Both the position numbers and the translations under genes were made by a program. 64,000 nucleotides of DNA, taken from contig CAZXTR010000002.1 in the NCBI GenBank assembly GCA_964643615.1, positions 937 through 64,936 on the forward strand. The letters are read 5' to 3'. The stretch's first letter is position 1. Every line of letters starts with the position of its first letter. Positions 4,472 through 27,874 of this stretch are shown one piece after another. Source of the stretch: an uncultured Lactobacillales bacterium (GTDB lineage: Bacteria > Pseudomonadota > Alphaproteobacteria > CAAHEQ01 > UBA3637). The notes beneath the pieces are model-generated. The model had not been told where the DNA came from and did no database searches. It saw nothing but the letters and a program-made list of their open reading frames with translations.

Positions 4472-5197
4472 ATGCCTTTGACACAAAAACGGATAACAAA
4501 AGGACTTTTGGTTGTTTTAGGGATGATTTTGGGGGTATCTTCTGTTCGGGCAGCTCATCCGATTACCGATATTACGCAAGATGCTTTGGCTGTAGTTGAA
4601 AATTCAAATGTTTTAAAACAATCAATTCAATTATTTGAATCGGGCGCGGTTGCTCGGTCTATTTATACAGCACAAGGAGATTTTAGAACCTTGGGCAATA
4701 ATTGGAGTTCTATTTTGACCTTTGATTGGGCGATGGATTCGGGATTAAGGCAAGCCTTTGCACCTGTTTTAGATGATGAGGATTTGACGGTTGCCCTTTC
4801 TGGGGATTTAGGTGTTGTTGGTGCTGCAAGAGGCTTCAATGTTACAAATTTAAGACGGAAAGTTGAAAAAACGTTAATGTTGCCGATAAATATTTCAGAT
4901 ATAACAGCACGGGAATTGCAAGCGATAAAACTTGAACAGCGGCGAAAGACAAGAGCTGCAACATTAGACAATTATTCGTTGGGTTTATCTGTTCAAGTGG
5001 ATGCAACGAATTTTGAAAAGGAAAAAATACCAGCGATTCGTCAAATGGCTCAAAAAACAGAAAATTTGACGGAAGCTGTTGTAGTTCAAAGTGAGGGTTT
5101 GAATTTGATTGCATCCCAAATCAATATAAATAATTTGTTAAAAGCGGCAGCGTTGGAATTACAATCCATTGAAGTGATGAAAATGGTTGATGGATAA
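4472..5197 (+). CDS. Secreted (signal-peptide) alpha-helical protein of unknown function. It may be VirB5/TrbJ-like.
   Basis: N-terminal signal peptide (LLVVLGMILGVSSVRA), then hydrophilic heptad-rich sequence. It is the first gene after the promoter and is translationally coupled to the next ORF. Confidence 0.5.
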   Translation: MPLTQKRITKGLLVVLGMILGVSSVRAAHPITDITQDALAVVENSNVLKQSIQLFESGAVARSIYTAQGDFRTLGNNWSSILTFDWAMDSGLRQAFAPVLDDEDLTVALSGDLGVVGAARGFNVTNLRRKVEKTLMLPINISDITARELQAIKLEQRRKTRAATLDNYSLGLSVQVDATNFEKEKIPAIRQMAQKTENLTEAVVVQSEGLNLIASQININNLLKAAALELQSIEVMKMVDG

Positions 5198-5924
5198 GGA
5201 GCGTGTGATGAAGGGAAGAGCCCTTGTTTTATCTTTGCTTGTGTTTGCATTTATTTCTTCAAGTGCTTTTGCGACGGTGGATGTTGTTATGGTGACTTTT
5301 AGAACGTCTCATGTTTTTCAACAAGTGAAAGAATATTTACAGGTTGCGGAACAAATTAAAAAGGATATTGAAAGATTGAAAAGCTTTGGCGATATTAATC
5401 AATTGGCAAAGTTTTTGCAGGTTCATTTGTCTGTGGATGGGAAATCTTTAGGTGTTTCTATTGATGCCGATGTCGCACGCCCGGCTGTTTTACAAGATTT
5501 GCAACCCTTTGTTCAGAGGGGTGGACGTGATCGTCTTAGGCTTCGTCAGCAAGTGGACACTCTATTGACGGTGGATTTAACAAATGCTGATGCGGTGCAA
5601 TATCAAAAAGTTAAAGATACAGCAAACGCTATATCTCATGTGACAACTTCGGATGCCTATGGAAAGGCTTTGGAGATAAAGGCGAAATCGAATAATGAAG
5701 GGATTGAAGTTTTGGTAGATCAAGCTGAAAAAGCAGAAAATTTTCAAGAGAAAGCAACGGCGTTTACGCTTTTTTACGAACCTATTGCGTTGAAGCTTAA
5801 CACTATTAATCAATTAGATGCTATGCTCAATACTTTGGAAAGTGCTCGTAAAATGCCAACGTTGGTTGGTGAGGCTATAAATGATGGGAATAATTCTTCT
5901 GATGCAAAAACAGGAGGGAAGTGA
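5187..5924 (+). CDS. Secreted alpha-helical protein of unknown function. It may be VirB5/TrbJ-like.
   Basis: Signal peptide (ALVLSLLVFAFISSSAFA); Q/K/E-rich helical N-region reminiscent of TrbJ/VirB5. It overlaps its neighbours by 11 and 4 nt. Confidence 0.5.
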   Translation: MMDKERVMKGRALVLSLLVFAFISSSAFATVDVVMVTFRTSHVFQQVKEYLQVAEQIKKDIERLKSFGDINQLAKFLQVHLSVDGKSLGVSIDADVARPAVLQDLQPFVQRGGRDRLRLRQQVDTLLTVDLTNADAVQYQKVKDTANAISHVTTSDAYGKALEIKAKSNNEGIEVLVDQAEKAENFQEKATAFTLFYEPIALKLNTINQLDAMLNTLESARKMPTLVGEAINDGNNSSDAKTGGK

Positions 5925-6865
5925 TGAGGGGGGCGGGGGTCGTCGGTTTTGGAATGGTTGTAACTGCCTTGATTTTGTCGCAACCTGTTTGTGCACAACG
6001 GGCTCAAGCAATTACGGCTGTTATTAAAACGGCGGAAGGATTAAAGTCGGGATCTTTTATTGGAGGGATGATGGGTGGGGGTGTCCCCGTTAAGGATAGT
6101 CTACGTGAAATCCAATCTAATTTAATTAATTTGAACGAGTTCGAAAAATTAAAGGGTATTGATTTTAATATTCAAGAAATTTATGTAAACATTGAGAGCA
6201 CTGCTAAGCAAGGTGTGAATGCGACACAACAAGCTTTGAGGAGTCTTCCTACGTCATCCGATTATACTCAGTTGTTGTCAGGGGATACAGGGAATCGAGG
6301 TATAGATGATGCATTTGTGGAAGATATTCTTGCTAAAAATGGCCCTGGTTCTGATGCAACGACCATACGGGAAGAAGCGGCAGATATGGATGACGTGCGT
6401 TATGATAAGTCTTTTCTAGACAGAGAATCGGCACTAGATTACGTTAAAAAGACCTTTTTCGTTGATATGGATGCTATTAATGCCAAAGGTGCGCAAGCAC
6501 TTCAAACTGTTCAATTTGAACAAACAAAAAAACGCCGTCAATTATTGTTGCGAGATGTAACAGTAGATGCATTGACTTATTCGCAACTGTTTAAGGGAAA
6601 CGGAAAAAAAGATTTTGAAGAAAGACTTGCGAGGATTAAAGAAAAACAAAAAGCGGTGAAAACGGAAACCGAAGGGATTGCAACAACAACAATGGCGTTA
6701 AAAAGTGTTCTTCAAGAAGTTATGATCCAAATTGTATTAGAGCAAAAGCAATTAAAATTAGAAGCAGCGAAGGTTTTAAAAATGCAAGAAATTCCTTTAG
6801 CAAAAAAGTCCGATGTTAAAAGTGAAAGTTCAGCTGATGAAATTGAGGGGGAGCCATTAAGATGA
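5921..6865 (+). CDS. Secreted protein of unknown function with a Gly-rich N-region
   Basis: Signal peptide; a GGMMGGGVPV segment; coiled-coil-like C-terminus. It has an ATGA overlap with the upstream ORF and is coupled downstream. Confidence 0.5.
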   Translation: MMRGAGVVGFGMVVTALILSQPVCAQRAQAITAVIKTAEGLKSGSFIGGMMGGGVPVKDSLREIQSNLINLNEFEKLKGIDFNIQEIYVNIESTAKQGVNATQQALRSLPTSSDYTQLLSGDTGNRGIDDAFVEDILAKNGPGSDATTIREEAADMDDVRYDKSFLDRESALDYVKKTFFVDMDAINAKGAQALQTVQFEQTKKRRQLLLRDVTVDALTYSQLFKGNGKKDFEERLARIKEKQKAVKTETEGIATTTMALKSVLQEVMIQIVLEQKQLKLEAAKVLKMQEIPLAKKSDVKSESSADEIEGEPLR

Positions 6866-7587
6866 AGAAAAAAATATTTATTTTATTTTTTATTTTATCT
6901 TGCTTTTTCCCTTTTAATCAAGTGAAGGCAATTTCTTTTCCAAAAATGGATGCCCTTATTACTCCTTTGGCTGTCGGAGACGGTTCTTCTATTTTGATGC
7001 TGGGTGGAATGACGGGGCAGCAAATTTTGACGGCGATTGTTTCAATCACCGATTTTATTAATCGCCAACAGTTGGAATTAGCGATGTCTTTGAATGGATT
7101 TCCTTTTGACAAGCGTGTGGCTGGTCTACGATATCTTATTCCGCAAATAGAACCATGGCGTGGCTCGGATGTGGGAATCTCGGTATTGTTTTCCAAAGGC
7201 GTAACAGTTGAAGATTCTCATGCCGTTTCTCGTGCTGTTGAGCAGGAAGTTATGGTCGCTAGAGAAACAAGTGCCGCAGGTGTTCAATTGGAACAAAAAA
7301 AGCGAAATTTATTTTCCCAAGAAAATGTTATTATTGCGATGGCAGATGCTCTTTACTATGAATCGTTGATTCAAGAATTACAAAAAACGTTGGATGAACT
7401 TTCACAAAGTGCAGATGTTAAAGAAGACAAGAATGGTGCAGTAACTGCAAATTATAAATATATGGAAGCTTGGTATCGTTTGTTGACTTTGTTAGAACAA
7501 ATTAAGGCTGAACGAGTTATGTTAAAGGCCTCTCAGGGAATTGTAGATGGGCAACCCATTTTGGATAGTGTCCTAACTTCGGGTTAA
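6862..7587 (+). CDS. Secreted protein of unknown function
   Basis: Signal peptide (MKKKIFILFFILSCFFPFNQVKA). It has an ATGA overlap with the upstream ORF. No recognisable domain. Confidence 0.5.
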   Translation: MKKKIFILFFILSCFFPFNQVKAISFPKMDALITPLAVGDGSSILMLGGMTGQQILTAIVSITDFINRQQLELAMSLNGFPFDKRVAGLRYLIPQIEPWRGSDVGISVLFSKGVTVEDSHAVSRAVEQEVMVARETSAAGVQLEQKKRNLFSQENVIIAMADALYYESLIQELQKTLDELSQSADVKEDKNGAVTANYKYMEAWYRLLTLLEQIKAERVMLKASQGIVDGQPILDSVLTSG

Positions 7588-7603
7588 ATGGAGGGAAGTT
7601 TTA

Positions 7604-9445
7604 ATGAAATATACTTTTAAAATAGGAATGTTTTTTGCTTTGTTTTTTTTGTTAGGTATGACTGTCGTTGGTCAAACAGAGGAAATAAAAAAAACTAAAG
7701 ATGTGATCTCCGACGATATGTGGAGCCCTTCGGTGGTGCGTGTAAATGCACAAGAAACACCTGTTATTCTTGGCAATATTGAAAATTTTGGATATCAAAA
7801 AGCTTTAATACAAGCGATGAGTTTGCATAACTATGCGAATTCGTTGCAAAATCAAATTCTTCAGGCTGATGATTATAAATATGCGGTTGTGAATGTCGCT
7901 TTAGCTGAACGTCGACTGACAGATTTGACTACGTGCAATATTAAGTTACTTCAGGATCATTTTATTGATGCGAAAAGTGTTTGGGATAAAATGAAATCCG
8001 AAGCCGATAGAATGTATCAAGAGGTTTCTATAAGTGAAACAATAGAACTTAATGAAATGAGTGAAAAAGATTTAGAAATTTTGGCTGGGATTACAAACGA
8101 TGGTGGTTCTTCAAGTGCTTTGTTGAATGAGATAAAAATTAATCTTTGTGAAGAGGCAATAGAATGGACTATCGGCCATTCTATTTTGACAGATTTATAT
8201 TACGATCAAGATGCTCAATTAAATGACGGGTCATTTAAATGGGGAGAAAGAAAAACCCCAACAACACCTTCATTCTCTTTGTGGCAAGACCAAAAGTTTT
8301 TATATGATAAGCAAATTTGGGACCCTAAATATATTGCGATTAATACCTTTTTTAAGGAACCTTTAGAGAGAAGACCCAAAATTTTGGGAGATAACCAAAA
8401 TCAAAAAAGGTTTGATTATTATTTTTATAATGACGTTGTCAAAGCGCACGAGGCTTATTTGAAACAATTAAAGATTGAAAATTTTCAGAAACCTGCGCGA
8501 GTTGTTTGGGAAGCTCTGCCCGCCGAATTAAAAGAGCCACCAAAGGTTGCTCCGCGTCCGTTGCCTCCTCGTTCAGAAATTGTTCTTTTCGACATGGATG
8601 ACGAAGATGCTAATGGAAATCTAATTCAATCGTTTAATGGAGTTTGTTTGGGGTATCCTCAACCGTGGCAAACTTTTATTGATAATCAATTCCGAATCTA
8701 TAATGCACGTGGAGAAATGGCATTTTTGTTTGATGTTAATCGCGGGGCGAAAACAATAACGCCTCGATGGAATGAAAGGGAAGTAATTGATTCAATGTTG
8801 CCAAAGCCCAATCGAATTAGCCGTTATTTGACCACGCAATATGAATTGAAAAAGAGAACGGCAGCGTTAGAAGAACAACGTGTTCGTGTGGCCGAGTTGA
8901 AATTACGGTATGAAGATATTGCTAGTAAGAATGGAGTCAAATTACCTGATAATTTGCATTATGGGAAAAAAGAAGATTTACAAAAAGTAAAAGATGCTTT
9001 TTTAAAGGAGAGAGACGAGCTACTTGCTTTGATAAAAAAAGAATATCCGTCTTTTGCATCAAAATTAGATTCTTCGGATATGCCCTTGCCTAGTGAAGAA
9101 GAACAAAAACGCTTAGACTCGTTGGCTCAACCCCAAGTTAAGGGAACAGACGAGACAAATACTTCTTGGGAAGAGGGTTTACTACCTAATTATGTTGCTT
9201 TAGCAAAAGCTATGAATTATGACTCCAGAGCAGAGGTGACGCTTTACTTTTCTAATGTTGAAAATATTGCTGAAGAAATGGCAACTGAACGTGCGAATAC
9301 GGCGTTGGCCGTTTTATCTCGTGAACAACTTGCTGAAGCTAGAAATGAACAAATAAAAAATGAAACACGAGATATTTATGAAGTTCCCTATTGTGTTAAC
9401 GGTGGAATCATAGGAGAGTTTGTTTTCGATGAAAGCCAAATTTGA
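7604..9445 (+). CDS. Large secreted protein of unknown function (613 aa) with a Pro-rich segment
   Basis: Signal peptide; a PPKVAPRPLPPRSE proline-rich linker; acidic stretch. It sits directly upstream of, and overlaps, the first virB8-like gene. Confidence 0.5.
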   Translation: MKYTFKIGMFFALFFLLGMTVVGQTEEIKKTKDVISDDMWSPSVVRVNAQETPVILGNIENFGYQKALIQAMSLHNYANSLQNQILQADDYKYAVVNVALAERRLTDLTTCNIKLLQDHFIDAKSVWDKMKSEADRMYQEVSISETIELNEMSEKDLEILAGITNDGGSSSALLNEIKINLCEEAIEWTIGHSILTDLYYDQDAQLNDGSFKWGERKTPTTPSFSLWQDQKFLYDKQIWDPKYIAINTFFKEPLERRPKILGDNQNQKRFDYYFYNDVVKAHEAYLKQLKIENFQKPARVVWEALPAELKEPPKVAPRPLPPRSEIVLFDMDDEDANGNLIQSFNGVCLGYPQPWQTFIDNQFRIYNARGEMAFLFDVNRGAKTITPRWNEREVIDSMLPKPNRISRYLTTQYELKKRTAALEEQRVRVAELKLRYEDIASKNGVKLPDNLHYGKKEDLQKVKDAFLKERDELLALIKKEYPSFASKLDSSDMPLPSEEEQKRLDSLAQPQVKGTDETNTSWEEGLLPNYVALAKAMNYDSRAEVTLYFSNVENIAEEMATERANTALAVLSREQLAEARNEQIKNETRDIYEVPYCVNGGIIGEFVFDESQI

Positions 9446-10112
9446 ACAATCTTTTACTGTCGATGAAAAAAAGAACACTTTAAAAAGTGTCGAAAGTCGC
9501 GTGAGTATGGGGCGCATTTCATCTTTGTTTTTTACGGGACTTGGATTTTTGTTAGTTAGTATTACATTTTTCCTTGTTTTAACTTTGTTTCAAGTGGGGC
9601 AACGATTGACTGTTTTGGCGCAACCTTTGCAAAAAGTATTGCAATCTTCTCAGTCGTTGGTTGTTAACGAAGATTTTAATAAAAACCTATCTTCTTTAAA
9701 ACTAGTTCATGAAACGTTGGTACGCAATTATGTTATTAAAAGGAATATGGTTATTCCAGATAAAATAGAGATGATGAAGCGATGGAGTGGTGGTGGTGAT
9801 ATCTTTTTGATGTCTTCTCCTAGCGTTTTTTATACGTTTGTCGGCAAAGATTTAAAAGGCAAAGTTTCTAGAGCTTTGAACAATGGAAGTGTCTTTGTCG
9901 ATATTCAAAAAGTTGAACAGATTATTCCTCGAACGCTGTCAGGTGTTGAGAATTGGTCAGTTGTTTTTAATTTGATTTATGCCAACGGTTTTGTTGCACG
10001 GCATACTGCTTCTTTAGTTTTGGTAAATACGCCTTCTCGTGTTCTTTTTCGGCCTCATTTTAATAACCCTGTTGGGGCTTTGGTAATAAAGTATGAAGAT
10101 TATCCCTCATAA
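9420..10112 (+). CDS. virB8: VirB8-like T4SS protein, divergent paralog 1
   Basis: Short cytoplasmic N-terminus, one TM helix, then a periplasmic NTF2-like domain ending NNPVGALVIKYEDY (compare the VirB8 NPLGF.V..Y motif). Confidence 0.6.
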   Translation: MFSMKAKFEQSFTVDEKKNTLKSVESRVSMGRISSLFFTGLGFLLVSITFFLVLTLFQVGQRLTVLAQPLQKVLQSSQSLVVNEDFNKNLSSLKLVHETLVRNYVIKRNMVIPDKIEMMKRWSGGGDIFLMSSPSVFYTFVGKDLKGKVSRALNNGSVFVDIQKVEQIIPRTLSGVENWSVVFNLIYANGFVARHTASLVLVNTPSRVLFRPHFNNPVGALVIKYEDYPS

Positions 10113-10201: not shown

Positions 10202-10384
10202 TTGTCGATGAAAAAAATTCTTGTTTTAGGAACGGTTATTTTTACAACCTTACTTGTCTCTTGTGGTTCTTTGTATGAAAAAGAACCTGTGGGGATTGGT
10301 ACGGATTACTCTGAATTGAAAAAATCCCCATGTGCTTGTTTGGAAGTGAAATTATTACCCGGCTTGCCTGAATGGTTTTCATAA
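10202..10384 (+). CDS. virB7: VirB7-like small lipoprotein. The probable start is the ATG at 10208.
   Basis: Lipobox LLVSC with a Cys right after the signal. It is 58-60 aa and sits between the two virB8 paralogs, as in Rickettsiales rvh loci. Confidence 0.5.
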   Translation: MSMKKILVLGTVIFTTLLVSCGSLYEKEPVGIGTDYSELKKSPCACLEVKLLPGLPEWFS

Positions 10385-10399
10385 AAAAGAGGGATTGAT

Positions 10400-11134
10400 A
10401 TGTTCGCTCGTCGTGCAGATGTGTCGAGGACAAATGCGAGTGTTGAAGAAGATGCATCGTTTGTGTTTTCTGATCAGTTGGACGAGGAAAATTTAAGAGA
10501 GCGTAGGTATTTATGGACAGCTCGAGCTTTTGCTGTTGTGTCCGCCGTTAGTATAGTTGCAAATATTGTGTTGGTTTTTGCGTTGTCGTCGTTGGTTCCG
10601 TTGACACGAATACAGCCTTTTTTCTTAACATTTGAAGATAAAAATGACCAAATTGTACGTGTTTCTCCGACAAATGTTAGTGCAGAACACTTAACCGAAA
10701 TTACTGAATCTTTTGTTCGTCAATATGTTGTTTTGCGTAATGCAGTTGTTTTTGATATTGATGAAATGAGATCTCGTTGGGGTGATTTTGGTCCCATTCG
10801 TTGGATGTCTGAAACGGAGCTTTATAAAAAATTTCTGACTGAAGAATTTGCAAAAACATTTGCTCGCATAGAAAAAGAAGGGTTTACAAGACGCGTGGAT
10901 ATTTCTTCTGTTTATCGCCAAATAGATAATTCAGATGTGGAACGGTGGGTTGTAGAAATTGAGGAATTGGAAATGGCGTCAGGGGCAAGTGAGCCTCAAA
11001 AAAAGTATTATACAGTGACAATGGATGTTGCTTATGAACCAAGGGATGCAAAGTGGGCTTTTCGTCGTAAAAATCCGATGGGCTTTATAGTAAAAAATTA
11101 TGGCAAAGTAGAAAAGGGGATCCAAGAGCTTTGA
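10400..11134 (+). CDS. virB8: T4SS protein VirB8
   Basis: N-terminal cytoplasmic segment, one TM helix, and a periplasmic domain with the VRQYVVLRN...NPMGFIVKNY C-terminal signature of the VirB8 family. Confidence 0.85.
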   Translation: MFARRADVSRTNASVEEDASFVFSDQLDEENLRERRYLWTARAFAVVSAVSIVANIVLVFALSSLVPLTRIQPFFLTFEDKNDQIVRVSPTNVSAEHLTEITESFVRQYVVLRNAVVFDIDEMRSRWGDFGPIRWMSETELYKKFLTEEFAKTFARIEKEGFTRRVDISSVYRQIDNSDVERWVVEIEELEMASGASEPQKKYYTVTMDVAYEPRDAKWAFRRKNPMGFIVKNYGKVEKGIQEL

Positions 11135-11398: not shown

Positions 11399-13033
11399 AT
11401 GTTAAAACATGAAATAAGAAAAAAAATTTTGATGATGACCGTAGCAACTCTAGTTGTTTTGAGCCCGTTTGTTGTCGTTGCACAACAGGTTCAGCCTGGG
11501 GATGTGGAGGCTGCTCAAATTAGTGATGCTATAGCACAAACAGCGGGGAGCTTTGATGCGATTAATCTCAGCTATTTAACATCTTTAGGAATGCAACAAA
11601 AAGCGTGGAATGACCCAATGCAACATTTGGGGGAAGGGCAATTAAAGCCTGGATATTCTCGTTATGTGTGGACGCCGGATGTGGTTTTGCCGGTTCGTTT
11701 GCGTGAAGGAATGATGACTCTTATCAATTTGCCTGCGTGGGAATTGATTGAAAAAGTGCATATCGGATCGCCAGAGTCTTTTGGCGGAGAAATTGCGGCG
11801 CCTAATTCATTGTTGTTGTATGCTGATCCGACTTATATAGGAGTTGACAGTAATTTGATTGTTTTTGGACGTTCTGGGAATCGGTATGTTTTTTATTTAA
11901 GGAGCGAGACTTACAATACGGATAGAATTACAAGTGCGGTTGTTGATGTATTGGTTGGTCCTAAATATACCCCTGAAAGTGTGGGCGGAAGCTTGAATTC
12001 AAATGATGGTGTTTCTGTGACAGCTTCAACTACAGGGAAGAAAGGAGGCGCTCCTGGTTGGAGCGGCGTTGGCAATAATAGTTTAACTCCAGGTGGAATG
12101 CAATCGCCAAATGTTGGTTTGAATACAGCGGGAAATGCTCCCCAAAATTGGTTAGGATCTGTTAACTCTAATCCAGAAAATTTACGCTTCGATATCGAAA
12201 TGTTTATCCCTAATCCTCAAGATATTGATATTGCTCCAGAGCGCGTATGGCGTGATGAGATTTTTACTTATATTGATTTTGGTGACAAAGCTTTGACCAT
12301 GACGCAACGTCCTGTGGTTAATTTGATCGTTCAAGGTGTGGAAGCTCCCGTTGGATCACGTGCGCGTGGCCCGAATAGTCGATTATTGGTTGTCGAAGGA
12401 ATTGGCGATATGGTTTTGCGTAACGGACAAAAGATTATTTGTTTGAAATTGAGACGTGATCCTGCCTTTGGGTTGGATAGAGCCGATTATTCTGCTTCTA
12501 ATGCAAGGACTTGGAATGCTGATCAACCATCTAATGTTTCTGAGCAAGACATAGGTGGCGTTTCCCAACAAATGAAAAGTCCGGGGATACCTTTGCCTGT
12601 GACAAATGGTGGCAATCAATATTCTGATCCGTATGCAACGGCACTAGATGCATATCAGAATAATTTATCTCCTTTGCCCAATGGGGTGCTTTCTTCTCAA
12701 TCAGCTACTTCTGGCATCGCGAATGTGATGAATGGTGTGACGGTTGGTGGCGGTTCGTTTGGCGTGCCGATGGCGGATAATATTGCTATCGAGTTAGGTC
12801 AAGCAAATACAATTGGTGAGTTGGAAAACAAGTGGGATTCTGTTCTGGGGAGAAATAAAGATTTATTACATGGTTACAGTCCTTATTTTTCTATTGATGC
12901 TATGGCCGAAGGTGGTGCTCCAGAATTGTTTCGTTTGCGTATAGGGCCTTTGGACACAGTGAAAACAGGGGATTCTTTATGTGAAAAGCTTAGTCGTCGT
13001 GGTTTCGTGTGTTCCGTGATTAGAACGCAATAG
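11399..13033 (+). CDS. virB9: T4SS protein VirB9 (CagX/TrbG family). It is extended by a low-complexity G/S/N-rich insert and a C-terminal SPOR-like domain.
   Basis: Signal peptide; N-domain (YVWTPDVVLPVRLREGMMTLINL...); C-terminal beta-domain (FTYIDFGDK...VVNLIVQGVE...ICLKLRRD). An extra C-terminal tail of about 170 aa ends LFRLRIGPLDTVKTGDSLCEKLSRRGFVCSVI (SPOR-like). Confidence 0.8.
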   Translation: MLKHEIRKKILMMTVATLVVLSPFVVVAQQVQPGDVEAAQISDAIAQTAGSFDAINLSYLTSLGMQQKAWNDPMQHLGEGQLKPGYSRYVWTPDVVLPVRLREGMMTLINLPAWELIEKVHIGSPESFGGEIAAPNSLLLYADPTYIGVDSNLIVFGRSGNRYVFYLRSETYNTDRITSAVVDVLVGPKYTPESVGGSLNSNDGVSVTASTTGKKGGAPGWSGVGNNSLTPGGMQSPNVGLNTAGNAPQNWLGSVNSNPENLRFDIEMFIPNPQDIDIAPERVWRDEIFTYIDFGDKALTMTQRPVVNLIVQGVEAPVGSRARGPNSRLLVVEGIGDMVLRNGQKIICLKLRRDPAFGLDRADYSASNARTWNADQPSNVSEQDIGGVSQQMKSPGIPLPVTNGGNQYSDPYATALDAYQNNLSPLPNGVLSSQSATSGIANVMNGVTVGGGSFGVPMADNIAIELGQANTIGELENKWDSVLGRNKDLLHGYSPYFSIDAMAEGGAPELFRLRIGPLDTVKTGDSLCEKLSRRGFVCSVIRTQ

Positions 13034-13057: not shown

Positions 13058-16000
13058 ATGTTGGGAAGAATGGAAGACAAAACATTAAACAACTCGTCTT
13101 TAAGTGAGCAATATGTAAAAAAGTCGAATCGGCTTTTGTTTGCTGGTGGAATTATTGGGACTGTTATTTTTTTGGTCCTGGTGTTGTTTTCCGCAGTTTC
13201 TTCTCCTCCTGAAGAGACCCCACTTCCTCCAATAGAATCTGGAGAAATTGGTCTTGGGATGGTTAATTCTGAGGAATTAAGAGGTGATGCATTGTTGGTT
13301 GCAAGCCCCGATTCGTTGGATTTAGATCGGATTATTGTAGGGGGATCTTCTGAATCTATTGTGACTTTGACGGCAAAAGGGAATGCAGTTCGTATTCATT
13401 CTATATCGTTGGCTGAAATCCAACAAGATGGTTTTATTATTGAAAGTGATTGTCCTCTAAAAGATCAGGAAATGCGCGTAGATAGTTCGTGCAATATCAA
13501 AGTATTGTGGAGCCCTGTTTCTGTACGACGTTTGCAAAATAATTTAATTATTCAATGGTCGGCTTCTGACGAAGTAACCGCATCCAAATTCCAAAAATTG
13601 ATGATTACGTTGGTTGGGCAATCAACAGATTCTAAAGATTGTATCATTTGCGAAGATAGTGCGGCTTCTGCTTTGGCTGCCGAAAAGGGGACGTTAGATC
13701 CGGAAACGGGTATTTATTTGTCCGACACAGGGGAAGTGTTGGGCATTATTGAGCCAGAATTAGTTCCTATTAGTTTGCGTGGTGTTTCTATGGGAACAGT
13801 GAAAATTGCTACTCGGGAAGTTGTTGATTCTTCGGGGCAAGTGATTGGTCGGTTGTTAGCGGATAATACAATTGTTACGCCTGAATTAAAAGTTTTGGGT
13901 GCGGCGTTGCCTGTGACTTCTGTTTTGGACGAAAAAGGCATTGTTATTGGTGAATTGTTGAATGATGGAACCGTTATTAATGGTGTAAAAGATGTTATCG
14001 GTGTTCCTATGCCTGATGGGACGATTTTAAGTAATGGCAAAATTATCGGTTCTGTTATGCCGTGGTCCGTCGTTTTGAATTTATCGTCGAATGCTGTGGG
14101 TGTTACAAGAAAAGATGGGACGGTTATTAATCCTCAAAAACAAACAATTGGTCGGGTTTTACCTGGTGGGCTTGTTGTGGATGTTGAAGGAACTATTGTC
14201 GGAGGAGTTGTCCCAAAAGGATTGGCGATTGGTGCGGGACGTAAATTGTTGGGTACTGTTTTACAAAGTGGTAAGGTTTTTAATGCAGGACAACAAGTTG
14301 CGACTGTGACAATGGATGGAATCGTTTTGGATATGTCTAATGTTCCCATTGGTAATGTTGTTCGTGAAGGTTTGGTAATTGATCCTAAGGGGACTGTTGT
14401 TGCTTTTATTAATTCTGCGGGAAGAGCAATTGATAGAGAGGGAAAATCATTGGGGGCTTTAAATCCAGATGGTAGTGTGGGTGCTGGAAAAAATATGATA
14501 GGGGCTTTATTGCCTCAGGGTCGTGTGATTGGCTATGATTTAAAAATTCAAGGATTGGGTTTGTCCGATGGTTCTGTTGTTCGATTGAATGGCGATTTGA
14601 TAGGAAAACTTCTTTCAACGGGTTATTCTGTTGACTTGGATAATAAAGTATTGGGCGCGGTTGTTCCTAAAGGAACCGCGATTGCTGAAGGTTGTGTGTT
14701 GTTAGGCATTATTAATTTGGATGGTCAAGTGTTGGGAGAAACATCTGAATTGGTGGGAACTGTTAACCCAGATAAAAAAATAATTGGTTCAAAGGGTGAT
14801 ATCATAGGAAGCGTTACACCTATCGGAGCTGTGGTTAACCCTGCAGGTGTGTTTGTCGGATTTGTTCGTATGGATGGTAAAGTTGTTGATAAATCAGGGC
14901 AAGTGATAGGATGTGTTAATCCCGCTGGAACTGTTGTAGATGAACATGGCGTCATGATAGGTCAAGTTGTGAAGGTTGGTACTGTTTTGGATGCAAATGG
15001 TAATCCGACGTCGATGACTGTAGTAGGAACGGATGTATTTGATGAAACTGTACGACGTATTGGGGCTTTAATTAACAATCAAGTTGTTAACGATGCTGGA
15101 AAGATTTTTGGTTTTGTGGCTCCTGACGGCGTTGTAATGTCTCCGAAAGGAACATTTTTAGGTCGTTTTTCAAATTCTGTTGGCTATGCTCTTAGCCCTG
15201 AAGGCGTACGCTTTGGGCGTGTTTTACCCGATTTGACAGTTGTTGGTATAGAGAAAAATGATATTCTCGGCGCTTTGATTGCCGATGGCAGCCAATTATT
15301 GAATATTAAAAATGAACGTATAGGATTTGTCCGTGCAGATGGTGTGCCTGTGACGTCGGATCAAGCGCCTCTTGGTGTTATTCGTGCGGATGGTAGTGTT
15401 GTTAGTGCCGAAGGATTGATTCTTGGTGGTTTGATGCCAAAAGGATTGGTTGTGGATTGGAATGGTTCGGTGATTGGATCCGTTGGGGATATGGCGAAAG
15501 TAGTGTCTGCTTCTGGGGATGAAGTTGGCGTTGTTAATTTAAATGGAACAGTTGTTCGTCAAGGAGCTATTGTTGGAATGGTTTTCCCTGAACCTTCTAT
15601 TCCTTTGGGGGCCGACGGCTCTGTGTTGGGCTTTTTGACAATTAATGGTTCGGTAAATAAAGATGGCAAGCCTATTGGTCACATAACTGCGGGCGGAAAT
15701 ATTTTTGATAATCGAGGAAAAATTATAGGTTCTTTGGTTCGTTTGGGCGCTGTTGTTGGTTCTGGCTTGGAAGTAAATGGCTATTTAGAATTTGATGGTT
15801 CGTTGAAAAGTCAAGCTAATACGGTGATTGGCCATATGATGCCTAATGGTTATGTTGTCGATGATAACGGAGCTGAAGTTGGTCATTTGATTGCACGTCA
15901 AACAGTTGTTGATTTAACGGGGGGCTTTATCGGTATTGCGTCCGTTGATGGCCGTGTTTTTGGGAAAGATGGTGAATTTATTGGAGCTTTCCCTTATGGT

Positions 16001-19000
16001 GATTCATTATGGAATTCTAAAGATATTTTAATAGGTCGTATTTTAAAGGCTGGCGTTGCTGTTGACCCATCTGGACAATTGTTAGGGTGGGCACGTTATG
16101 ATGGGACAGTTGTTAATATCTCAGGTCAAGTGCTTGGGATTGTTCAATCAGATGGTCGTGTTATCGGGGCTAAAAAAACAGTTATTGGTGCGTATATACC
16201 TTTCGGAACGTTGGCGTTTGATGAAAAAGGAATTACAATAGGGGCTGTGGACTTTAATGGTGTTGTGAAAGATGGTAAAAATTCTTCATTAGGAACTGTT
16301 ATCGATTCACTTGTTATCAACAAGCAATCAGGAGTTGTCGGTTCAATATTGCCTGAAGGTTTCGCAACAAATGAACAGGGTAAGGTTTTTGGGACTGTTG
16401 CTCCAAATGCGACGGTTGTTCCGGGCATTGAAATAGAGAGTTTAAATGGCTATTTAAATCCGAATTTGCGTATGATTAATCAAGACAAAAAGGTTATTGG
16501 AGGCAGTGTTCCTTTTGGGGTTGCTCTGGGATTGGATTTGTCTATTGTGGGAAATGTGACGCCAGATGCGCGTGTTATTTTTAATCGTTCTCCAGTTGCA
16601 GTTGCTTTGCCAGATATGACTATGTATGATTCTGTTGGTAAAATGTGGGGAGGTATTATTCCATTAAACGTTGTTATAGGACGTGATGGACATGTGGTTG
16701 GGCGAACATCGGTTTCGAATGCCGTTTTGGATTTTGACGCAAAGAAATTAGGATCGTTGATGCCATTTGGTACCGTGTTTGGTGCAAATAACAAATTGCT
16801 TGGAATTGGAATGATGAATGGTGTAGCGGTTAATGACGATGCTAAGCCTTTGGGGTTTGTTGGTGTTGATGGTGCGGTTGTTGATAGTAGTGGTGTGGTT
16901 GTTGGTCGTGTGATGCAGGATGGCACGATTATTGAAACACTGAACCGAGATGTTTACGGTGTTATGCCGGATGTTGGAGATGTCGTCGCTTCTGGGGTTG
17001 CTATAAACTTGAAGTCAGAATTGTTGGGGCGTTCAATGCCGTCGGGACATGTACTTGATGCGAAAGATGATATTGTTGCATGGGTTTTGGATGATGCTAC
17101 TTTGTTTGGAACGAATGGAGATTTGGCAGGCGCTTTAGTCCCTTATAGAACAGCGATTGATTATCAAGCCAATGTTTTGGGAAATACGACTGGTAACGGT
17201 GAACTTGTAAGTGTTCAAGGGGCTGTTATTGGGACTTTGGCCACGAATGGTGCCGTTAAAGGAAGTCACGTGTTAAAAACTTTAGGTGCTATCGTTCCAA
17301 AAGAGCTGGTTTCTCACGAATGTAAAATCGTTGGGCAACCACGTTTAGATGGTCGTATCATTGATGCAAAAGGAGTTGTTGTTGGTGTGTTGAATTTAGA
17401 TGGCTCTGCCCAAAATTTAAAAGGAGAACCTTTGGGTGGTGTTGTCGTTAAAGGGTCTGTGATTGCTCAAGATGGAACATTGTTAGGTCGCACTTTACCA
17501 GATGCAGATGTGGTCGATTTATCAGGGGCGTCTATCGGTTGTTCTTTGTCCGATGGATCTGTGATTGACAAAAATGGTAACGTTATTGGTAAAGTTCTAA
17601 AACGGGGACTTGTTCTCGATAAAGACGGAAATGTTGTTGGTCGTGTAAAGCGCAATGGAAGCGTTGTTGATGCTTCTGGAAATGTTGTTGGTCGTGTTTT
17701 GGGCAATGGTGATGTTGTGAATACTTCTGGCAATGTCATCGGCCGTGTTGTTGATGTGAAAAAAGATCAATTACTTTATGGTGATGATGGTAAAATTTTG
17801 GGTTCTATGGACAAGGTGGGGCGTGTTTTCGATAATAAAGGAAGGCATTTGTTTGCGGTTGCTCCAGATGGCAAATTATATGATCCTGCGGGTAATTTAA
17901 TAGGTTCTGTTGATGATGAAGGAAATATCCGTAATTTGGCCGGAGAGATTGTTGGCAAAGTTGGGAAAAATTCTGTTTCTGAATCGCCTAAGTATTTATA
18001 CGGTGATAATGGACGTATTATTGGACGAGTTAAAGGGAATAAAATTTATGATTTGAACGGTAAAGAGATGGGGGCTGTTTTGCCCGATGGTACGGTAATG
18101 TTGCATGGCAAAAAGTTGGGAAAATTAGATGCAAATGGTAACATTATCAAAGATGCAGAGAAGGGAAAAGGTGTCGGCAGTATTCGAGATGGTAAGTTGT
18201 ATGATGAAAATGGCAATGTAGTAAGCTATATTCGAGGGAACAAGATTTACGATTCTGATGGTAATTTGATTGGCGAAATCTTACCCGATGGCACGGTGAT
18301 GTTGCATGGTGAAAAATTGGGTAAATTGGATGCAAATGGTAATATTATTGCTGACGGTACGGGGGGATTTATCTCTGGGAAAATAGAAGATATTTTAGGT
18401 AAATCTGAAATTGCAACGGAAGGTGCGCGTCAAATTGATATGGGAGGGCGCTCCCTCTTGATTTTGCCAGATAAAACGATTATTGATCCCTTGACAAACT
18501 CTATTGTTGGATATTTGGGAGCTGATAGTATACCGTATTCGACAAGTGGGAATCGGTTGTCGGATGATATGGATGGTTCTAAACCATTTATGCAAGAAGC
18601 GGTTAAGTTTACCCCTGAACAAGCACAACAAATGCAACAGATGTTGGCAAATCGCCGTCAACAGATGAAATCAAAAATATCTTCGAACAACGAATCTGGG
18701 GAGAGCCAATTATCAAAGTTGATTCCTGATGCACGTATTTTGGCGCGGTCCAATCCAAAAATTGCTAAGGATTTTGGGTCGAAGACAGTTTCTTCATGGC
18801 CTGTTCCAATGGATAGGATGATTTTAAAAGACAAGTCTATTCCTGCGGTTTTGTCGCGGTCAATTGACTCGCGTTATATGAGCGTTCCTGCTTCGGCGGT
18901 TGTTGAACGTCATGTTTATGCCGAAGATGGTCGGAATATTTTGATTCCTGCGGGCAGTAAATTAATTGGTAAGGTGAGTGGTAGTCCTGGCAAAAATCGT

Positions 19001-26204: not shown

Positions 26205-27874
26205 GAATGCAATCCATCTTTTGACTTGTCTTCGCCTTCTTGCTTTTGTTGAGTTGCGGGTGTAAGTGTCGGTAAGACTGTTGATGGAGTTGCATCTACA
26301 TATGGTGGGTTTTTATTTTTATTGTTTTGCCCGTAAATGCTGACTTGGTTTCGGCCGTTTTCTTTCGATGCATATAACGCTGAATCGGCGTATTTCGTTA
26401 ATTCTTCCAAATCATTAGATGTTGATGATTCTACAATTCCAAGGCTAATGGTAAAACGCACCTCTTGCGTATCAGTTTGAACTCGTAAATTGCTTGCCGC
26501 TTGACGAATCCTTTCTGCTATAGCAAACCCCTTTTGAATAGTTGTTTTGGGAAGGAAAATAATGAATTCTTCCCCGCCATATCGCGCAAAAATATCGCAT
26601 GAACGAAGATTTTGTTGGCAGGTGTTGGCTAAAGCCTTTAATACTTCATCACCGCAGGCGTGACCATAAGTATCATTGACTTTTTTAAAAAAGTCAATGT
26701 CAAACATAATTACACAACTTGGCGCATGTATTTGCCAAGATTGGGTTAATTCTTTTTTCGCTAAAGTTTGGAATTGACGGCGATTGTAACAACCAGTTAA
26801 AGGATCTTTGACGGCCTTTTCAAATAAATCTTGTTCGTGTTGTTTTTGATTCGTAACATCTTTAAATGCTGTGTACAAAGCAACTTCGTTGTCCCAATCA
26901 ATAACCCGAGCAGACATTTCTAACCAAAAGTTTTCTTGCGTCCCTGGCTTTCTGAGCAAAGCTTGAAAGTTTTCAACAATTGGTGTCTTTGATAATTGGC
27001 TCAACAATTTTTTCCGGGCGTTTGGGTCGACAAAATATTCCTCTGTTTTGAATTTTCTTGGGTCACGCATGTTGATATTAAATAGAATGCTGGCCTTTTC
27101 ATTAACAAGCATTAAACTGTCATCTTTTAATTGAGAAATAATAATTGGGAAGGGGGAAGCTTGGATAATCTGAGGGGTTCTTTCTTTACTTGTTCGTAGT
27201 TCTTTTTGCAAAGCAAGGTTCTTTTCTTTTAATAACGAAAGTGAGGATAAAATAATGCAAAAAACAAGTAAGAAATACAGAAGAGTTTCTATCTCCCATG
27301 CCCGAATCTCTGTAGCTATTCCAAATGGGGTGACAATAATAAGGTAATAAAGTGCAAGTGTTAAAATCGCAAGTCCTGGTCCCTTTAGAAATTGCTTTGT
27401 GCGGTTTATTGGTAAAATAAAACAGCCGCCTAAAAAAACAAGGCCAGATACAAGATAAATGGATGGTAAAATATTTTGCCACGAAGAGTCAACGTGTAAT
27501 GCAGTGACGGCAGAACCTACCATCGCAATTAAACAAACGAATAAAACCCATCCGGTCCCAATGAATTTGAATTTTTTTAACGATTGTAATCCACCTACAA
27601 TCATTAAAACGACAGCTGTTGATTGAATAAAAATAGTAACTGTTCTGGTAAGATCATCGGGTAATGTTACGAAGCCCTTCTCCTTGAAAGTAAAAACAAA
27701 GATAGAAAATAAATTTTTAATGGCTAAAAACGTAAAGCCTAATGAAGCGCATGTTAAATCGTTTTTACTCTTTTCTTCATCATTACCTAGGAAAAATAAA
27801 GCAAAAGCTACAACGATTCCGCCGAATAATTCTGGAAAATAAAGACTCATCATCGTAAAAAACTTCTCTGGCAT
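26201..27874 (-). CDS. Membrane-anchored PAS-GGDEF diguanylate cyclase
   Basis: Multi-TM N-terminal region, a PAS-like segment, a canonical RYGGEEF active site and an RSCD (RxxD) I-site. Confidence 0.8.
   Translation of the reverse strand: MPEKFFTMMSLYFPELFGGIVVAFALFFLGNDEEKSKNDLTCASLGFTFLAIKNLFSIFVFTFKEKGFVTLPDDLTRTVTIFIQSTAVVLMIVGGLQSLKKFKFIGTGWVLFVCLIAMVGSAVTALHVDSSWQNILPSIYLVSGLVFLGGCFILPINRTKQFLKGPGLAILTLALYYLIIVTPFGIATEIRAWEIETLLYFLLVFCIILSSLSLLKEKNLALQKELRTSKERTPQIIQASPFPIIISQLKDDSLMLVNEKASILFNINMRDPRKFKTEEYFVDPNARKKLLSQLSKTPIVENFQALLRKPGTQENFWLEMSARVIDWDNEVALYTAFKDVTNQKQHEQDLFEKAVKDPLTGCYNRRQFQTLAKKELTQSWQIHAPSCVIMFDIDFFKKVNDTYGHACGDEVLKALANTCQQNLRSCDIFARYGGEEFIIFLPKTTIQKGFAIAERIRQAASNLRVQTDTQEVRFTISLGIVESSTSNDLEELTKYADSALYASKENGRNQVSIYGQNNKNKNPPYVDATPSTVLPTLTPATQQKQEGEDKSKDGLHS

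What the first reader, a model, noticed from the sequence alone, without database searches (positions are those of the whole stretch)
11399..13033. VirB9 doubled in length by a low-complexity insert and a SPOR-like peptidoglycan-binding C-terminus
The N- and C-terminal VirB9 domains are separated by a G/S/N/T-rich low-complexity linker at about 11960-12190. After the canonical C-terminus (…ICLKLRRD) comes a tail of about 170 aa. Its last 40 residues (ELFRLRIGPLDTVKTGDSLCEKLSRRGFVCSVI) closely resemble the second half of SPOR domains (compare RlpA/DamX ...YRVRVGPF.S...A......L...G....V). A SPOR domain would tether the outer-membrane core complex to septal or denuded peptidoglycan, a role usually served by separate proteins.
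Basis: partly seen in the sequence, partly recalled or inferred. Interest (0 to 1): 0.55.

Follow-up and report, generated by a model that had tools for sequence, protein, structure and literature searches.

The report
VirB9 fused to SPOR-like wall-binding domain
A core outer-membrane subunit (VirB9) of a type IV secretion machine in uncultured gut Alphaproteobacteria carries, on a long flexible tether, a conserved SPOR-type domain. The domain probably holds or positions the machine on the cell wall, but its key sugar-binding glutamine is replaced by glutamate.

Summary
ORF 11399-13033 encodes a 544-aa secreted VirB9 (Pfam CagX, 49 bits, above threshold). It has a 65-aa G/S/N/T-rich linker between its two VirB9 domains. 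After "ICLKLRRD" comes a 190-aa tail: a roughly 100-aa variable linker, then a fixed 86-aa domain.

The window's own domain scores below the Pfam SPOR threshold (12.5-16.6 bits against 21). Three lines of evidence still support SPOR:
- All 38 orthologous tails hit SPOR, several above threshold and over nearly the whole profile.
- AlphaFold gives a confident β-α-β-β-α-β fold (pLDDT 87).
- The best PDB fold matches are SPOR domains: CwlC, RlpA (TM 0.67/0.76) and DedD.

The tail is present in 79 of 80 related species-level genomes. A divergent form occurs in a wider alphaproteobacterial VirB9 branch, including plasmids of cultured Erythrobacter and Microvirga.

The RlpA-type L-x-R-x-R glycan-contact motif is conserved. 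The hallmark Gln is an invariant Glu, and the Q251E change weakens glycan binding in FtsN. Peptidoglycan tethering or septal targeting is therefore plausible but unproven, and the ligand may differ.

I found no paper describing this fusion. I rate it a new variant of a known kind, of moderate interest.

The parts
11399..11485 (+). Signal peptide of VirB9 (residues 1-29, ...VVVA/QQ)
   Evidence: Read from the sequence: basic n-region, hydrophobic core, AxA-like site. AlphaFold helix 2-21. A28 and Q29 are at least 90% conserved, and invariant in the 24-sequence alignment. The cleavage site is inferred.
11486..11968 (+). Conserved N-terminal extension (residues 30-86) plus VirB9 N-terminal domain (residues 87-190)
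   Evidence: The Pfam CagX match starts at residue 87. TIGR02781 VirB9 matches residues 90-172 on profile positions 34-112. Mean column identity is 0.80 and 0.93 over 56 homologues.
11969..12163 (+). Linker 1: G/S/N/T-rich insert between the two VirB9 domains (residues 191-255)
   Evidence: 57% G/S/N/T, 57-68 aa long, 66% column identity. G196, G197 and W251 are invariant; W221 and GLNTA are at least 90% conserved. It accounts for the roughly 70 extra residues within the CagX match.
12164..12466 (+). VirB9 C-terminal domain (residues 256-356), ending ...ICLKLRRD
   Evidence: The CagX match runs to residue 349, profile position 195 of 198. Column identity is 87% and the length is fixed at 101 aa.
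12467..12772 (+). Linker 2: variable, probably disordered tether (residues 357-458)
   Evidence: 40% column identity. Length is 79-172 aa in 56 homologues. pLDDT is below 55 in the full-length model.
12773..13033 (+). SPOR-like domain (residues 459-544) and stop codon. Secondary structure: β1 461-469, α1 472-485, β2 495-500, β3 510-518, α2 521-533, β4 539-543. Key residues: E465 at the conserved-Gln site, the L510/R512/R514 motif, and the Cys pair C528/C538.
   Evidence: Pfam SPOR: 12.5 bits in the whole protein, 16.6 bits for the tail alone. Orthologues score 27-30 bits over profile positions 6/7-76. AlphaFold pLDDT is 86.8 for the tail alone and above 90 within the full-length model. Foldseek matches: CwlC E 8.9e-4; RlpA SPOR TM 0.67/0.76, rmsd 2.5.
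9420..10112 (+). Context: second, divergent VirB8-like paralogue
   Evidence: 29% identity to the VirB8 ORF, E 2e-11. No Pfam hit.
10202..10384 (+). Context: 60-aa lipoprotein in the VirB7 position (lipobox LLVSC)
   Evidence: Read from the sequence. A 58-aa gene is called at the same place on a contig that carries the identical VirB9 protein. The VirB7 role is inferred from position only.
10400..11134 (+). Context: VirB8
   Evidence: Pfam VirB8, E 4.4e-17.
13058..19801 (+). Context: giant VirB10 (2247 aa): TM segment, about 1850 aa of beta-flower repeats, then a TrbI domain
   Evidence: Pfam Bflower_2, 16 stretches, E 2e-85. TrbI, E 4e-34, at residues 1922-2115. An ORF of more than 2000 aa follows VirB9 in nearly all related loci that have room for it.
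19814..20803 (+). Context: VirB11-type ATPase
   Evidence: Pfam T2SSE, E 1.5e-20.

Best explanation
The gene encodes the VirB9 outer-membrane core subunit of a chromosomal P-type type IV secretion system in an uncultured gut alphaproteobacterium.

Shown:
- It is a secreted VirB9 with both VirB9 domains.
- A roughly 100-aa variable linker follows the C-terminal domain, then an 86-aa domain homologous to SPOR domains (RNP-like β-α-β-β-α-β fold).
- The domain is under strong constraint throughout the clade.

Inferred:
- VirB9's C-terminal domain sits under the outer membrane. In solved core complexes VirB9 is present in 14 copies (established knowledge).
- The flexible tether would let a ring of SPOR-like domains reach the peptidoglycan layer and bind glycan strands through the open face of the β-sheet. 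Invariant E465, S498, R512 and R514 lie on that face.
- Multivalent binding would fix the core complex in the wall.
- If the ligand is the amidase-made 'denuded' glycan of division sites, binding would deposit machines at septa and hence at new poles.
- The conserved Cys pair (C528 in α2, C538 before β4) probably forms a periplasmic disulfide that stabilises the domain.
For: VirB9 identity:
- CagX scores 49.3 bits against a cutoff of 34.2.
- The gene order is VirB8-like, lipoprotein, VirB8, VirB9, VirB10, VirB11.

SPOR homology:
- 38 of 38 orthologous tails hit PF05036, best E 1.9e-8.
- P0013, P0024 and P0104 score 27-30 bits against a cutoff of 21, over profile positions 6/7-76.
- The AlphaFold tail model has pLDDT 86.8 and β-α-β-β-α-β topology.
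- The best PDB fold matches are SPOR domains: CwlC 1x60 (E 8.9e-4), RlpA 6i05/6i09 (TM 0.66-0.76, rmsd 2.5-2.7) and DedD 6ztg. Generic ferredoxin-like folds score only TM 0.3-0.45.

Binding-site residues:
- In RlpA, L307, R309 and R311 contact the glycan or form the basic patch, and FtsN R285 is equivalent to R309 (PMC6895207).
- The window has L510-F-R512-L-R514. R512 and R514 are invariant in 56 homologues.

Constraint:
- The domain has a fixed length of 86 aa and 71% column identity. The preceding linker has 40% identity and varies from 79 to 172 aa.
- The tail is present in 79 of 80 species-level genomes.
- The Cys pair is invariant even in the most divergent tails.

Independence from the giant VirB10: an Erythrobacter aureus conjugative plasmid has the same tail next to a normal 529-aa VirB10.

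Precedent for a wall-binding subunit positioning a T4SS: Legionella DotK binds peptidoglycan and is needed for polar Dot/Icm localisation (PMC10266036).
Against: - The window's own copy is below Pfam's SPOR threshold (12.5 and 16.6 bits against 21).
- PDB sequence searches give nothing significant.
- The hallmark Gln (RlpA Q270, FtsN Q251, HMM position 8) is Glu in 79 of 79 genomes. It is Asp or Glu in most divergent relatives and Gln in only one. FtsN Q251E reduces denuded-glycan binding and septal localisation.
- The aromatic residue equivalent to RlpA F274 is absent; the window has A469.
- The mapping of E465 to the Gln site rests on Pfam match coordinates in three orthologues and on the x-Q-x-G motif. 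It is not a residue-level structural superposition.
- No binding or localisation data exist.
- The full-length model is poor (pLDDT 49), so the geometry of the tether is inferred.
Confidence: 0.55

Rival explanations
1. The domain has a SPOR fold but a changed ligand. The invariant Glu (Asp in some relatives) at the Gln site retunes it to a different cell-wall feature. Candidates are a modified glycan, such as one carrying de-N-acetylated sugars with a free amine, or glycan ends made by the system's own wall-cutting step. The machine would then be placed, or released, according to wall chemistry rather than simply at septa.
For: - Glu is found in 79 of 79 genomes, and Asp or Glu in most divergent tails.
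- Q251E weakens canonical binding in FtsN.
- In RlpA simulations the Gln hydrogen-bonds the GlcNAc N-acetyl group, and de-N-acetylated glycan is not bound.
- A T4SS wall-binding subunit sensitive to the acetylation state is known: DotK.
- The rest of the open β-sheet face is invariant (E465, S498, R512, R514). This argues for a real, specific site.
Against: This is pure inference about chemistry, with no ligand data. One relative (P0125) has Gln at the site, so the position tolerates the canonical residue. The frequency of Glu at this position among SPOR domains in general was not measured here.
Confidence: 0.22
2. The SPOR-fold domain no longer binds peptidoglycan. It is a protein-protein module, for example docking onto another periplasmic T4SS part or onto neighbouring VirB9 tails, and adds a ring to the core complex.
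For: - Two sequence hallmarks of glycan binding are lost: Gln to Glu, and Phe to Ala.
- Helix α1 carries invariant L475, E476 and W479, away from the canonical glycan face.
- DotK and Lpg0657 were first judged not to bind peptidoglycan because key residues were absent, although DotK was later shown to bind it.
Against: - A long, length-variable, poorly conserved tether (79-172 aa) suits reaching a distant layer better than docking at a fixed site.
- The basic L-x-R-x-R motif of the glycan pocket is retained.
- The tail occurs with both giant and normal VirB10, so it is not a partner of the beta-flower repeats.
Confidence: 0.15
3. The SPOR resemblance is a chance match to a generic ferredoxin-like fold, and the tail is an unimportant appendage.
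For: The window's Pfam score is sub-threshold. No PDB sequence hit is significant. Many ferredoxin-like folds appear in the Foldseek list.
Against: - Orthologues pass Pfam's curated threshold over the full profile.
- SPOR structures are the best-superposing fold matches (TM 0.63-0.67 against 0.3-0.45 for the other listed matches; DedD 0.49), and CwlC has the lowest E-value.
- The domain is retained at fixed length in 79 of 80 species-level genomes and in a wider VirB9 clade.
Confidence: 0.03

Closest known systems
SPOR domains (Pfam PF05036) of RlpA, FtsN, DamX, DedD and CwlC
   Same: - Size of about 75-86 aa and a β-α-β-β-α-β RNP-like fold; these are the best PDB fold matches.
- Periplasmic location, at the C-terminus after a disordered low-complexity linker. 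This is the usual SPOR arrangement according to PMC6895207.
- An L-x-R-x-R motif in β3, like RlpA L307/R309/R311.
   Different: - The conserved Gln of β1 is Glu, and the Phe four residues later is Ala.
- The window copy is below the Pfam threshold.
- There is an invariant α2-β4 Cys pair.
- The domain is attached to a secretion-system subunit, not to a division protein or wall hydrolase.
- Binding to denuded glycan is untested.
Canonical VirB9/TraO/TrwF-type subunits (Pfam CagX PF03524; TIGR02781)
   Same: Both VirB9 domains are present, and the CagX match is above threshold. The gene sits between VirB8 and VirB10. The protein has a signal peptide.
   Different: - It is about twice the usual length. 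The CagX and TIGR02781 models are 198 and 248 positions long, and plasmid relatives align only to about residue 350.
- It has an extra roughly 55-aa conserved N-terminal stretch, a roughly 65-aa G/S/N/T-rich inter-domain insert, and the 190-aa tail.
- It scores far below the TIGR02781 equivalog cutoff (33 against 218 bits).
- A family profile finds no solved VirB9 by sequence.
Legionella Dot/Icm DotK (OmpA-like lipoprotein of the outer-membrane core complex)
   Same: A wall-binding fold is built into a T4SS outer-membrane complex. DotK binds peptidoglycan and is needed for polar localisation of the machine. This is the closest functional analogue.
   Different: DotK is a separate lipoprotein with an OmpA-like fold that recognises the peptide stem region. 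It belongs to a type IVB system. Here the domain is SPOR-type, which recognises glycan, and is covalently fused to VirB9 in a P-type (IVA) system.
Peptidoglycan-binding accessory parts of other envelope machines (T6SS TagL-type OmpA domains, T2SS GspA/ExeA, type IV pilus TsaP/FimV LysM). Cited from my own knowledge and from the statement in PMC10266036.
   Same: The general principle is the same: a trans-envelope machine is anchored to the wall by a dedicated binding domain.
   Different: The folds differ (OmpA-like, PF01471, LysM) and so do the carrier proteins. I know of none that is a SPOR domain on a core ring subunit.

Membership tests
VirB9 / CagX (PF03524) | Match to the family HMM above the curated gathering score | tested here: met
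   49.3 bits against a cutoff of 34.2, E 7e-13, residues 87-349 on profile positions 4-195 of 198.
VirB9 / CagX (PF03524) | Equivalog-level match to P-type VirB9 (TIGR02781) | tested here: not met
   33.2 bits against a cutoff of 217.7. It is a divergent VirB9, not an equivalog of the model family.
VirB9 / CagX (PF03524) | Position in a T4SS operon between VirB8 and VirB10, followed by VirB11 | tested here: met
   VirB8 at 10400-11134, VirB10/TrbI at 13058-19801, VirB11-type ATPase at 19814-20803. The same order is found in the Erythrobacter plasmid.
VirB9 / CagX (PF03524) | Two β-sandwich domains that assemble into a 14-mer core complex with VirB7 and VirB10 | tested here: inconclusive
   The full-length AlphaFold model is poor in the VirB9 part (pLDDT 30-50). 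Assembly is not testable with these tools.
SPOR domain (PF05036) | Match to the family HMM above the gathering score (21 bits) | tested here: inconclusive
   The window copy scores 12.5 bits (whole protein) and 16.6 bits (tail alone), so the feature is not met. Orthologues 53-75% identical in the tail score 25-30 bits, some over profile positions 6/7-76. 38 of 38 tails hit SPOR at E of 1 or less.
SPOR domain (PF05036) | RNP-like fold: a four-stranded antiparallel sheet with two helices on one side | tested here: met
   The AlphaFold model has pLDDT 86.8 and β-α-β-β-α-β topology. The best PDB fold matches include CwlC, RlpA and DedD SPOR structures, with TM up to 0.67/0.76.
SPOR domain (PF05036) | Conserved Gln in β1 (RlpA Q270, FtsN Q251, HMM position 8) that hydrogen-bonds the glycan | tested here: not met
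   The residue is Glu at E465, and Glu in 79 of 79 related genomes. The mapping comes from Pfam match coordinates in P0013, P0024 and P0104. FtsN Q251E is binding-defective.
SPOR domain (PF05036) | Basic patch on the β-sheet face that binds the MurNAc lactyl carboxylate (RlpA R309/R311, FtsN R285) | tested here: met
   R512 and R514 are invariant in 56 homologues, within an L-F-R-L-R motif that parallels RlpA L307-x-R309-x-R311. In very divergent tails R514 is nearly invariant and R512 is R, H or Y.
SPOR domain (PF05036) | Binds peptidoglycan glycan strands lacking stem peptides, and localises to division septa | not testable with these tools
   This needs sacculus pull-down or ITC and fluorescence localisation.

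The most novel reading that the evidence does not exclude
The Glu-for-Gln SPOR variant on VirB9 is a retuned wall sensor. It recognises a chemically distinct peptidoglycan state, for example de-N-acetylated or otherwise edited glycan, or the cut edges of the hole made for the machine. It thereby decides where, or whether, this subfamily of type IV secretion systems assembles. That would be a built-in link between wall editing and secretion-machine placement, and it defines a previously unrecognised VirB9 subfamily across Alphaproteobacteria.
Probability: 0.2. Interest if true: 0.7.

Novelty: new variant of a known kind. Interest (0 to 1): 0.5.

Why it matters
How P-type type IV secretion systems are fixed in, and positioned relative to, the peptidoglycan layer is poorly understood. 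The best evidence so far comes from the unrelated OmpA-like DotK of Legionella.

A SPOR-type domain fused to the 14-copy core subunit VirB9 offers a direct, testable mechanism for wall anchoring. It could also deposit machines at septa and so at cell poles.

- The fusion is conserved in a whole clade of gut Alphaproteobacteria, found in human, ruminant, rabbit and horse MAGs.
- In divergent form it occurs on plasmids of cultured Erythrobacter and Microvirga, so experiments are feasible.
- The invariant Glu at the position where Q-to-E cripples FtsN's SPOR domain makes this family a natural experiment on SPOR ligand specificity.

Tried and rejected
- PDB sequence searches gave nothing significant. 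I tried the tail alone, a tail profile (CwlC only, at E 0.11), a broadened tail profile and a full-length family profile (no solved VirB9 found). The link to SPOR therefore rests on Pfam and on fold.
- hhalign of the tail profile against the E. coli FtsN SPOR domain aligned only the second half, at low probability (14%). It could not be used to map β1.
- Full-length AlphaFold with 56 sequences was poor (pLDDT 49) outside the SPOR domain. It gives no statement about VirB9 domain packing or tether geometry.
- Literature searches found nothing relevant: 'VirB9' with 'SPOR domain' gave 0 papers; 'type IV secretion' with 'SPOR domain' gave 16 papers, none on such a fusion judging by the 14 titles and abstract openings listed; the RF32 and gut Alphaproteobacteria T4SS queries gave 0.
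- I rejected the idea that the tail is a partner of the giant beta-flower VirB10. The Erythrobacter plasmid has the tail with a normal 529-aa VirB10.
- I rejected the idea that the feature is specific to this gene or is an assembly artefact. The identical protein is on record on three public contigs, two of them read here, and orthologues occur in 79 of 80 related genomes.
- Pfam did not detect SPOR in the most divergent long VirB9s: Microvirga-type 'group B' and Erythrobacter. Their link to the window's tail is by iterated HMM, tblastn and hhalign only (84% probability, E 7e-6).
Full report
**Observation**

The ORF at 11399-13033 (+) is real: ATG start, 544 aa. It follows a VirB8-like paralogue (9420-10112; 29% identical to VirB8, E 2e-11), a 60-aa lipoprotein in the VirB7 position (10202-10384) and VirB8 (10400-11134; Pfam VirB8, E 4e-17). 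It precedes a TrbI/VirB10 protein (13058-19801) and a VirB11-type ATPase (19814-20803). The neighbours are housekeeping genes: SurA, FolD, DnaK, DnaJ and SecD. The system is therefore chromosomal.

The protein matches Pfam CagX/VirB9 above threshold (49.3 bits against 34.2; residues 87-349 on profile positions 4-195). It is far below the TIGR02781 equivalog cutoff. A family profile finds no solved VirB9 by sequence. It is a divergent VirB9.

**Anatomy**

I aligned 56 homologues and computed statistics per region.

| Region | Residues | Column identity | Notes |
|---|---|---|---|
| Signal peptide | 1-29 | – | |
| Conserved N-terminal extension | 30-86 | 80% | |
| VirB9 N-domain | 87-190 | 93% | |
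| Linker 1 | 191-255 | 66% | 57% G/S/N/T against 30% protein-wide; 57-68 aa; G196, G197, W251 invariant |
| VirB9 C-domain | 256-356 | 87% | ends ICLKLRRD |
| Linker 2 | 357-458 | 40% | 79-172 aa long |
| Terminal domain | 459-544 | 71% | fixed at 86 aa |

The tail is 190 aa rather than about 170, and the whole 86-aa terminal unit is the domain, not only its last 40 residues.

**Is the tail a SPOR domain?**

- The window's own copy is sub-threshold for PF05036: 12.5 bits in the whole protein, and 16.6 bits with E 0.01 for the tail alone, against a cutoff of 21. Only the second half of the profile is matched.
- All 38 diverse orthologous tails hit SPOR (best E 1.9e-8). Several orthologues pass the curated threshold at 25-30 bits, three of them over profile positions 6/7-76 of 76.
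- AlphaFold on the tail alignment gives a confident model (pLDDT 86.8) with β1-α1-β2-β3-α2-β4 topology. The same domain is the only confident part (pLDDT above 90) of the full-length model.
- Foldseek against the PDB returns SPOR structures among the best matches: CwlC 1x60 (E 8.9e-4, TM 0.63/0.70), RlpA SPOR 6i05/6i09 (TM 0.66-0.67/0.74-0.76, rmsd 2.5-2.7 Å) and DedD 6ztg. Generic ferredoxin-like proteins reach only TM 0.3-0.45.
- Sequence searches of the PDB are not significant.

I conclude that the domain is a divergent member of the SPOR fold family. The case is strong for the orthologous group and weaker by score for this one sequence.

**Binding-site residues**

The RlpA-glycan crystal structure paper (PMC6895207) gives the reference points:
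- The side chains of Q270, R302 and R309, together with R311, make the polar contacts and the basic patch.
- L307 and F274 make hydrophobic contacts.
- FtsN Q251 and R285 are the equivalents of Q270 and R309.
- Only the Gln is highly conserved across SPOR domains (HMM position 8).

In the window, β3 reads L510-F-R512-L-R514, which reproduces RlpA's L307-x-R309-x-R311. R512 and R514 are invariant in 56 homologues.

The β1 motif is I-E465-L-G instead of V-Q-V-G. The Pfam match coordinates of three orthologues put this Glu at profile position 8. It is Glu in 79 of 79 related genomes. In more distant tails it is Glu or Asp, and Gln in only one. The Phe equivalent is Ala.

A 2024 preprint states that the Q251E substitution reduces septal localisation and denuded-glycan binding of the FtsN SPOR domain. 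Canonical binding therefore cannot be assumed.

Against that, E465, S498, R512 and R514 are invariant. By strand periodicity they face the open side of the sheet, where SPOR domains bind glycan (inference). This points to a conserved ligand site.

Two cysteines, C528 in α2 and C538 just before β4, are the most conserved positions of all. I infer a periplasmic disulfide.

**Distribution**

- At least 1665 homologues were found. The 120 best are 510-617 aa long and nearly all cover 94-100% of the query.
- In a one-genome-per-species collection, 80 loci were recovered. Most are titled uncultured Alphaproteobacteria MAGs, from human, ruminant, rabbit and horse gut. 79 of them carry the tail with Glu, the Cys pair and the FRLR motif.
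- A search of 50%-identity cluster representatives found 556 relatives.
- An iterated tail HMM detects the domain in 30 of 149 representatives.
- A further group of long VirB9s, including cultured Microvirga, ends in a domain with the same terminal Cys pair. It aligns to the tail profile over 79 columns (hhalign probability 84%, E 7e-6), although Pfam does not call SPOR there.
- A tblastn search of plasmids shows a 432-aa VirB9 on an Erythrobacter aureus plasmid that aligns through residue 541. It sits in a full conjugative set: relaxase, VirB2, VirB4, VirB8-11 and VirD4, with a normal 529-aa VirB10.
- Other alphaproteobacterial plasmid VirB9s (Roseibium, Thalassospira, Magnetospirillum, Paracaedimonas) align only to about residue 350.
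- In a rough neighbour-joining tree of 119 VirB9 cores, all tail-bearing sequences fall in one half and none in the other. The tree has no support values, so it is indicative only. It suggests a single origin that defines a VirB9 subfamily.

**Mechanism**

Shown: this is a secreted VirB9 with a long variable tether and a constrained SPOR-fold domain.

Inferred from established T4SS architecture: the VirB9 C-domain lies in the outer layer of a 14-fold core complex. A roughly 100-aa disordered tether can span the distance to the peptidoglycan layer. Fourteen weak binders would give strong avidity; the SPOR domains measured so far have Kd of about 1-10 µM.

The most likely role is wall anchoring or positioning of the core complex. 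If denuded glycans are the ligand, that means septal and then polar placement. The closest functional precedent is Legionella DotK, a separate OmpA-like lipoprotein of the Dot/Icm core complex. [quoted passage not shown]

The Glu substitution leaves two rivals open: a retuned ligand, or loss of wall binding in favour of protein contacts. The length-variable tether, and the tail's occurrence with both giant and normal VirB10, argue against a fixed protein partner.

**Novelty**

Both parts are known families. Automated Pfam annotation already marks CagX plus SPOR on some homologues. NCBI names these proteins only 'TrbG/VirB9 family'. Full-text searches found no paper describing a VirB9-SPOR fusion or a SPOR domain in a T4SS. 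I rate it a new variant of a known kind, of moderate interest. It is made more testable by the cultured plasmid-borne relatives and by the natural Q-to-E variant.

Noticed in passing
window 13058-19801 (+): Giant VirB10 of 2247 aa. An N-terminal TM segment is followed by about 1850 aa containing 16 matches to PF21785 '5-fold beta-flower' (E 2e-85), plus PF21784 and DUF3659, and only then the TrbI domain (residues 1922-2115). By VirB10 topology this mass would be periplasmic, multiplied by the ring stoichiometry. An ORF of 2037-2684 aa follows VirB9 in nearly all related loci that have room for it. The Erythrobacter plasmid relative has a normal 529-aa VirB10.
   Followed up: partly
window 20880-24257 (+): A 1125-aa ORF sits directly after the VirB11-type ATPase, where virD4 usually lies. 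It has no Pfam family; the only hit is a sub-threshold teneurin-EGF match.
   Followed up: partly
window 4472-9445 (+): Five consecutive same-strand ORFs (241, 245, 314, 241 and 613 aa) lie immediately upstream of the T4SS genes. None has a Pfam match above its curated cutoff; the best is a sub-cutoff lysine-methyltransferase hit on 6862-7587. The 613-aa ORF has a signal-peptide-like N-terminus. They may be unrecognised T4SS components or effectors.
   Followed up: partly
window 9420-10112 and 10202-10384 (+): A second, very divergent VirB8-like paralogue (29% identical to VirB8, E 2e-11, no Pfam hit) and a 60-aa lipoprotein (lipobox LLVSC) in the VirB7 position. From memory, a duplicated VirB8 is reminiscent of the Rickettsiales vir homologue arrangement; I did not test this.
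   Followed up: partly
L017, L023, L081 (related loci): Contigs carrying this alphaproteobacterial T4SS are filed under bins named Lactobacillales, Holdemanella biformis and Limosilactobacillus gorillae. They are probably mis-binned contigs in public MAGs.
   Followed up: no
window residues 30-86 of the VirB9 ORF (nt 11486-11656): A roughly 55-aa stretch between the signal peptide and the start of the CagX match is highly conserved (80% column identity; the invariant motif GMQQKAWN lies here). It has no counterpart in the Pfam VirB9 model.
   Followed up: no
window 26201-27874 (-) and 37037-39238 (-): A GGDEF diguanylate cyclase and a hybrid PAS-histidine kinase/response regulator lie within 20 kb downstream of the T4SS. 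I tested no link to it.
   Followed up: no
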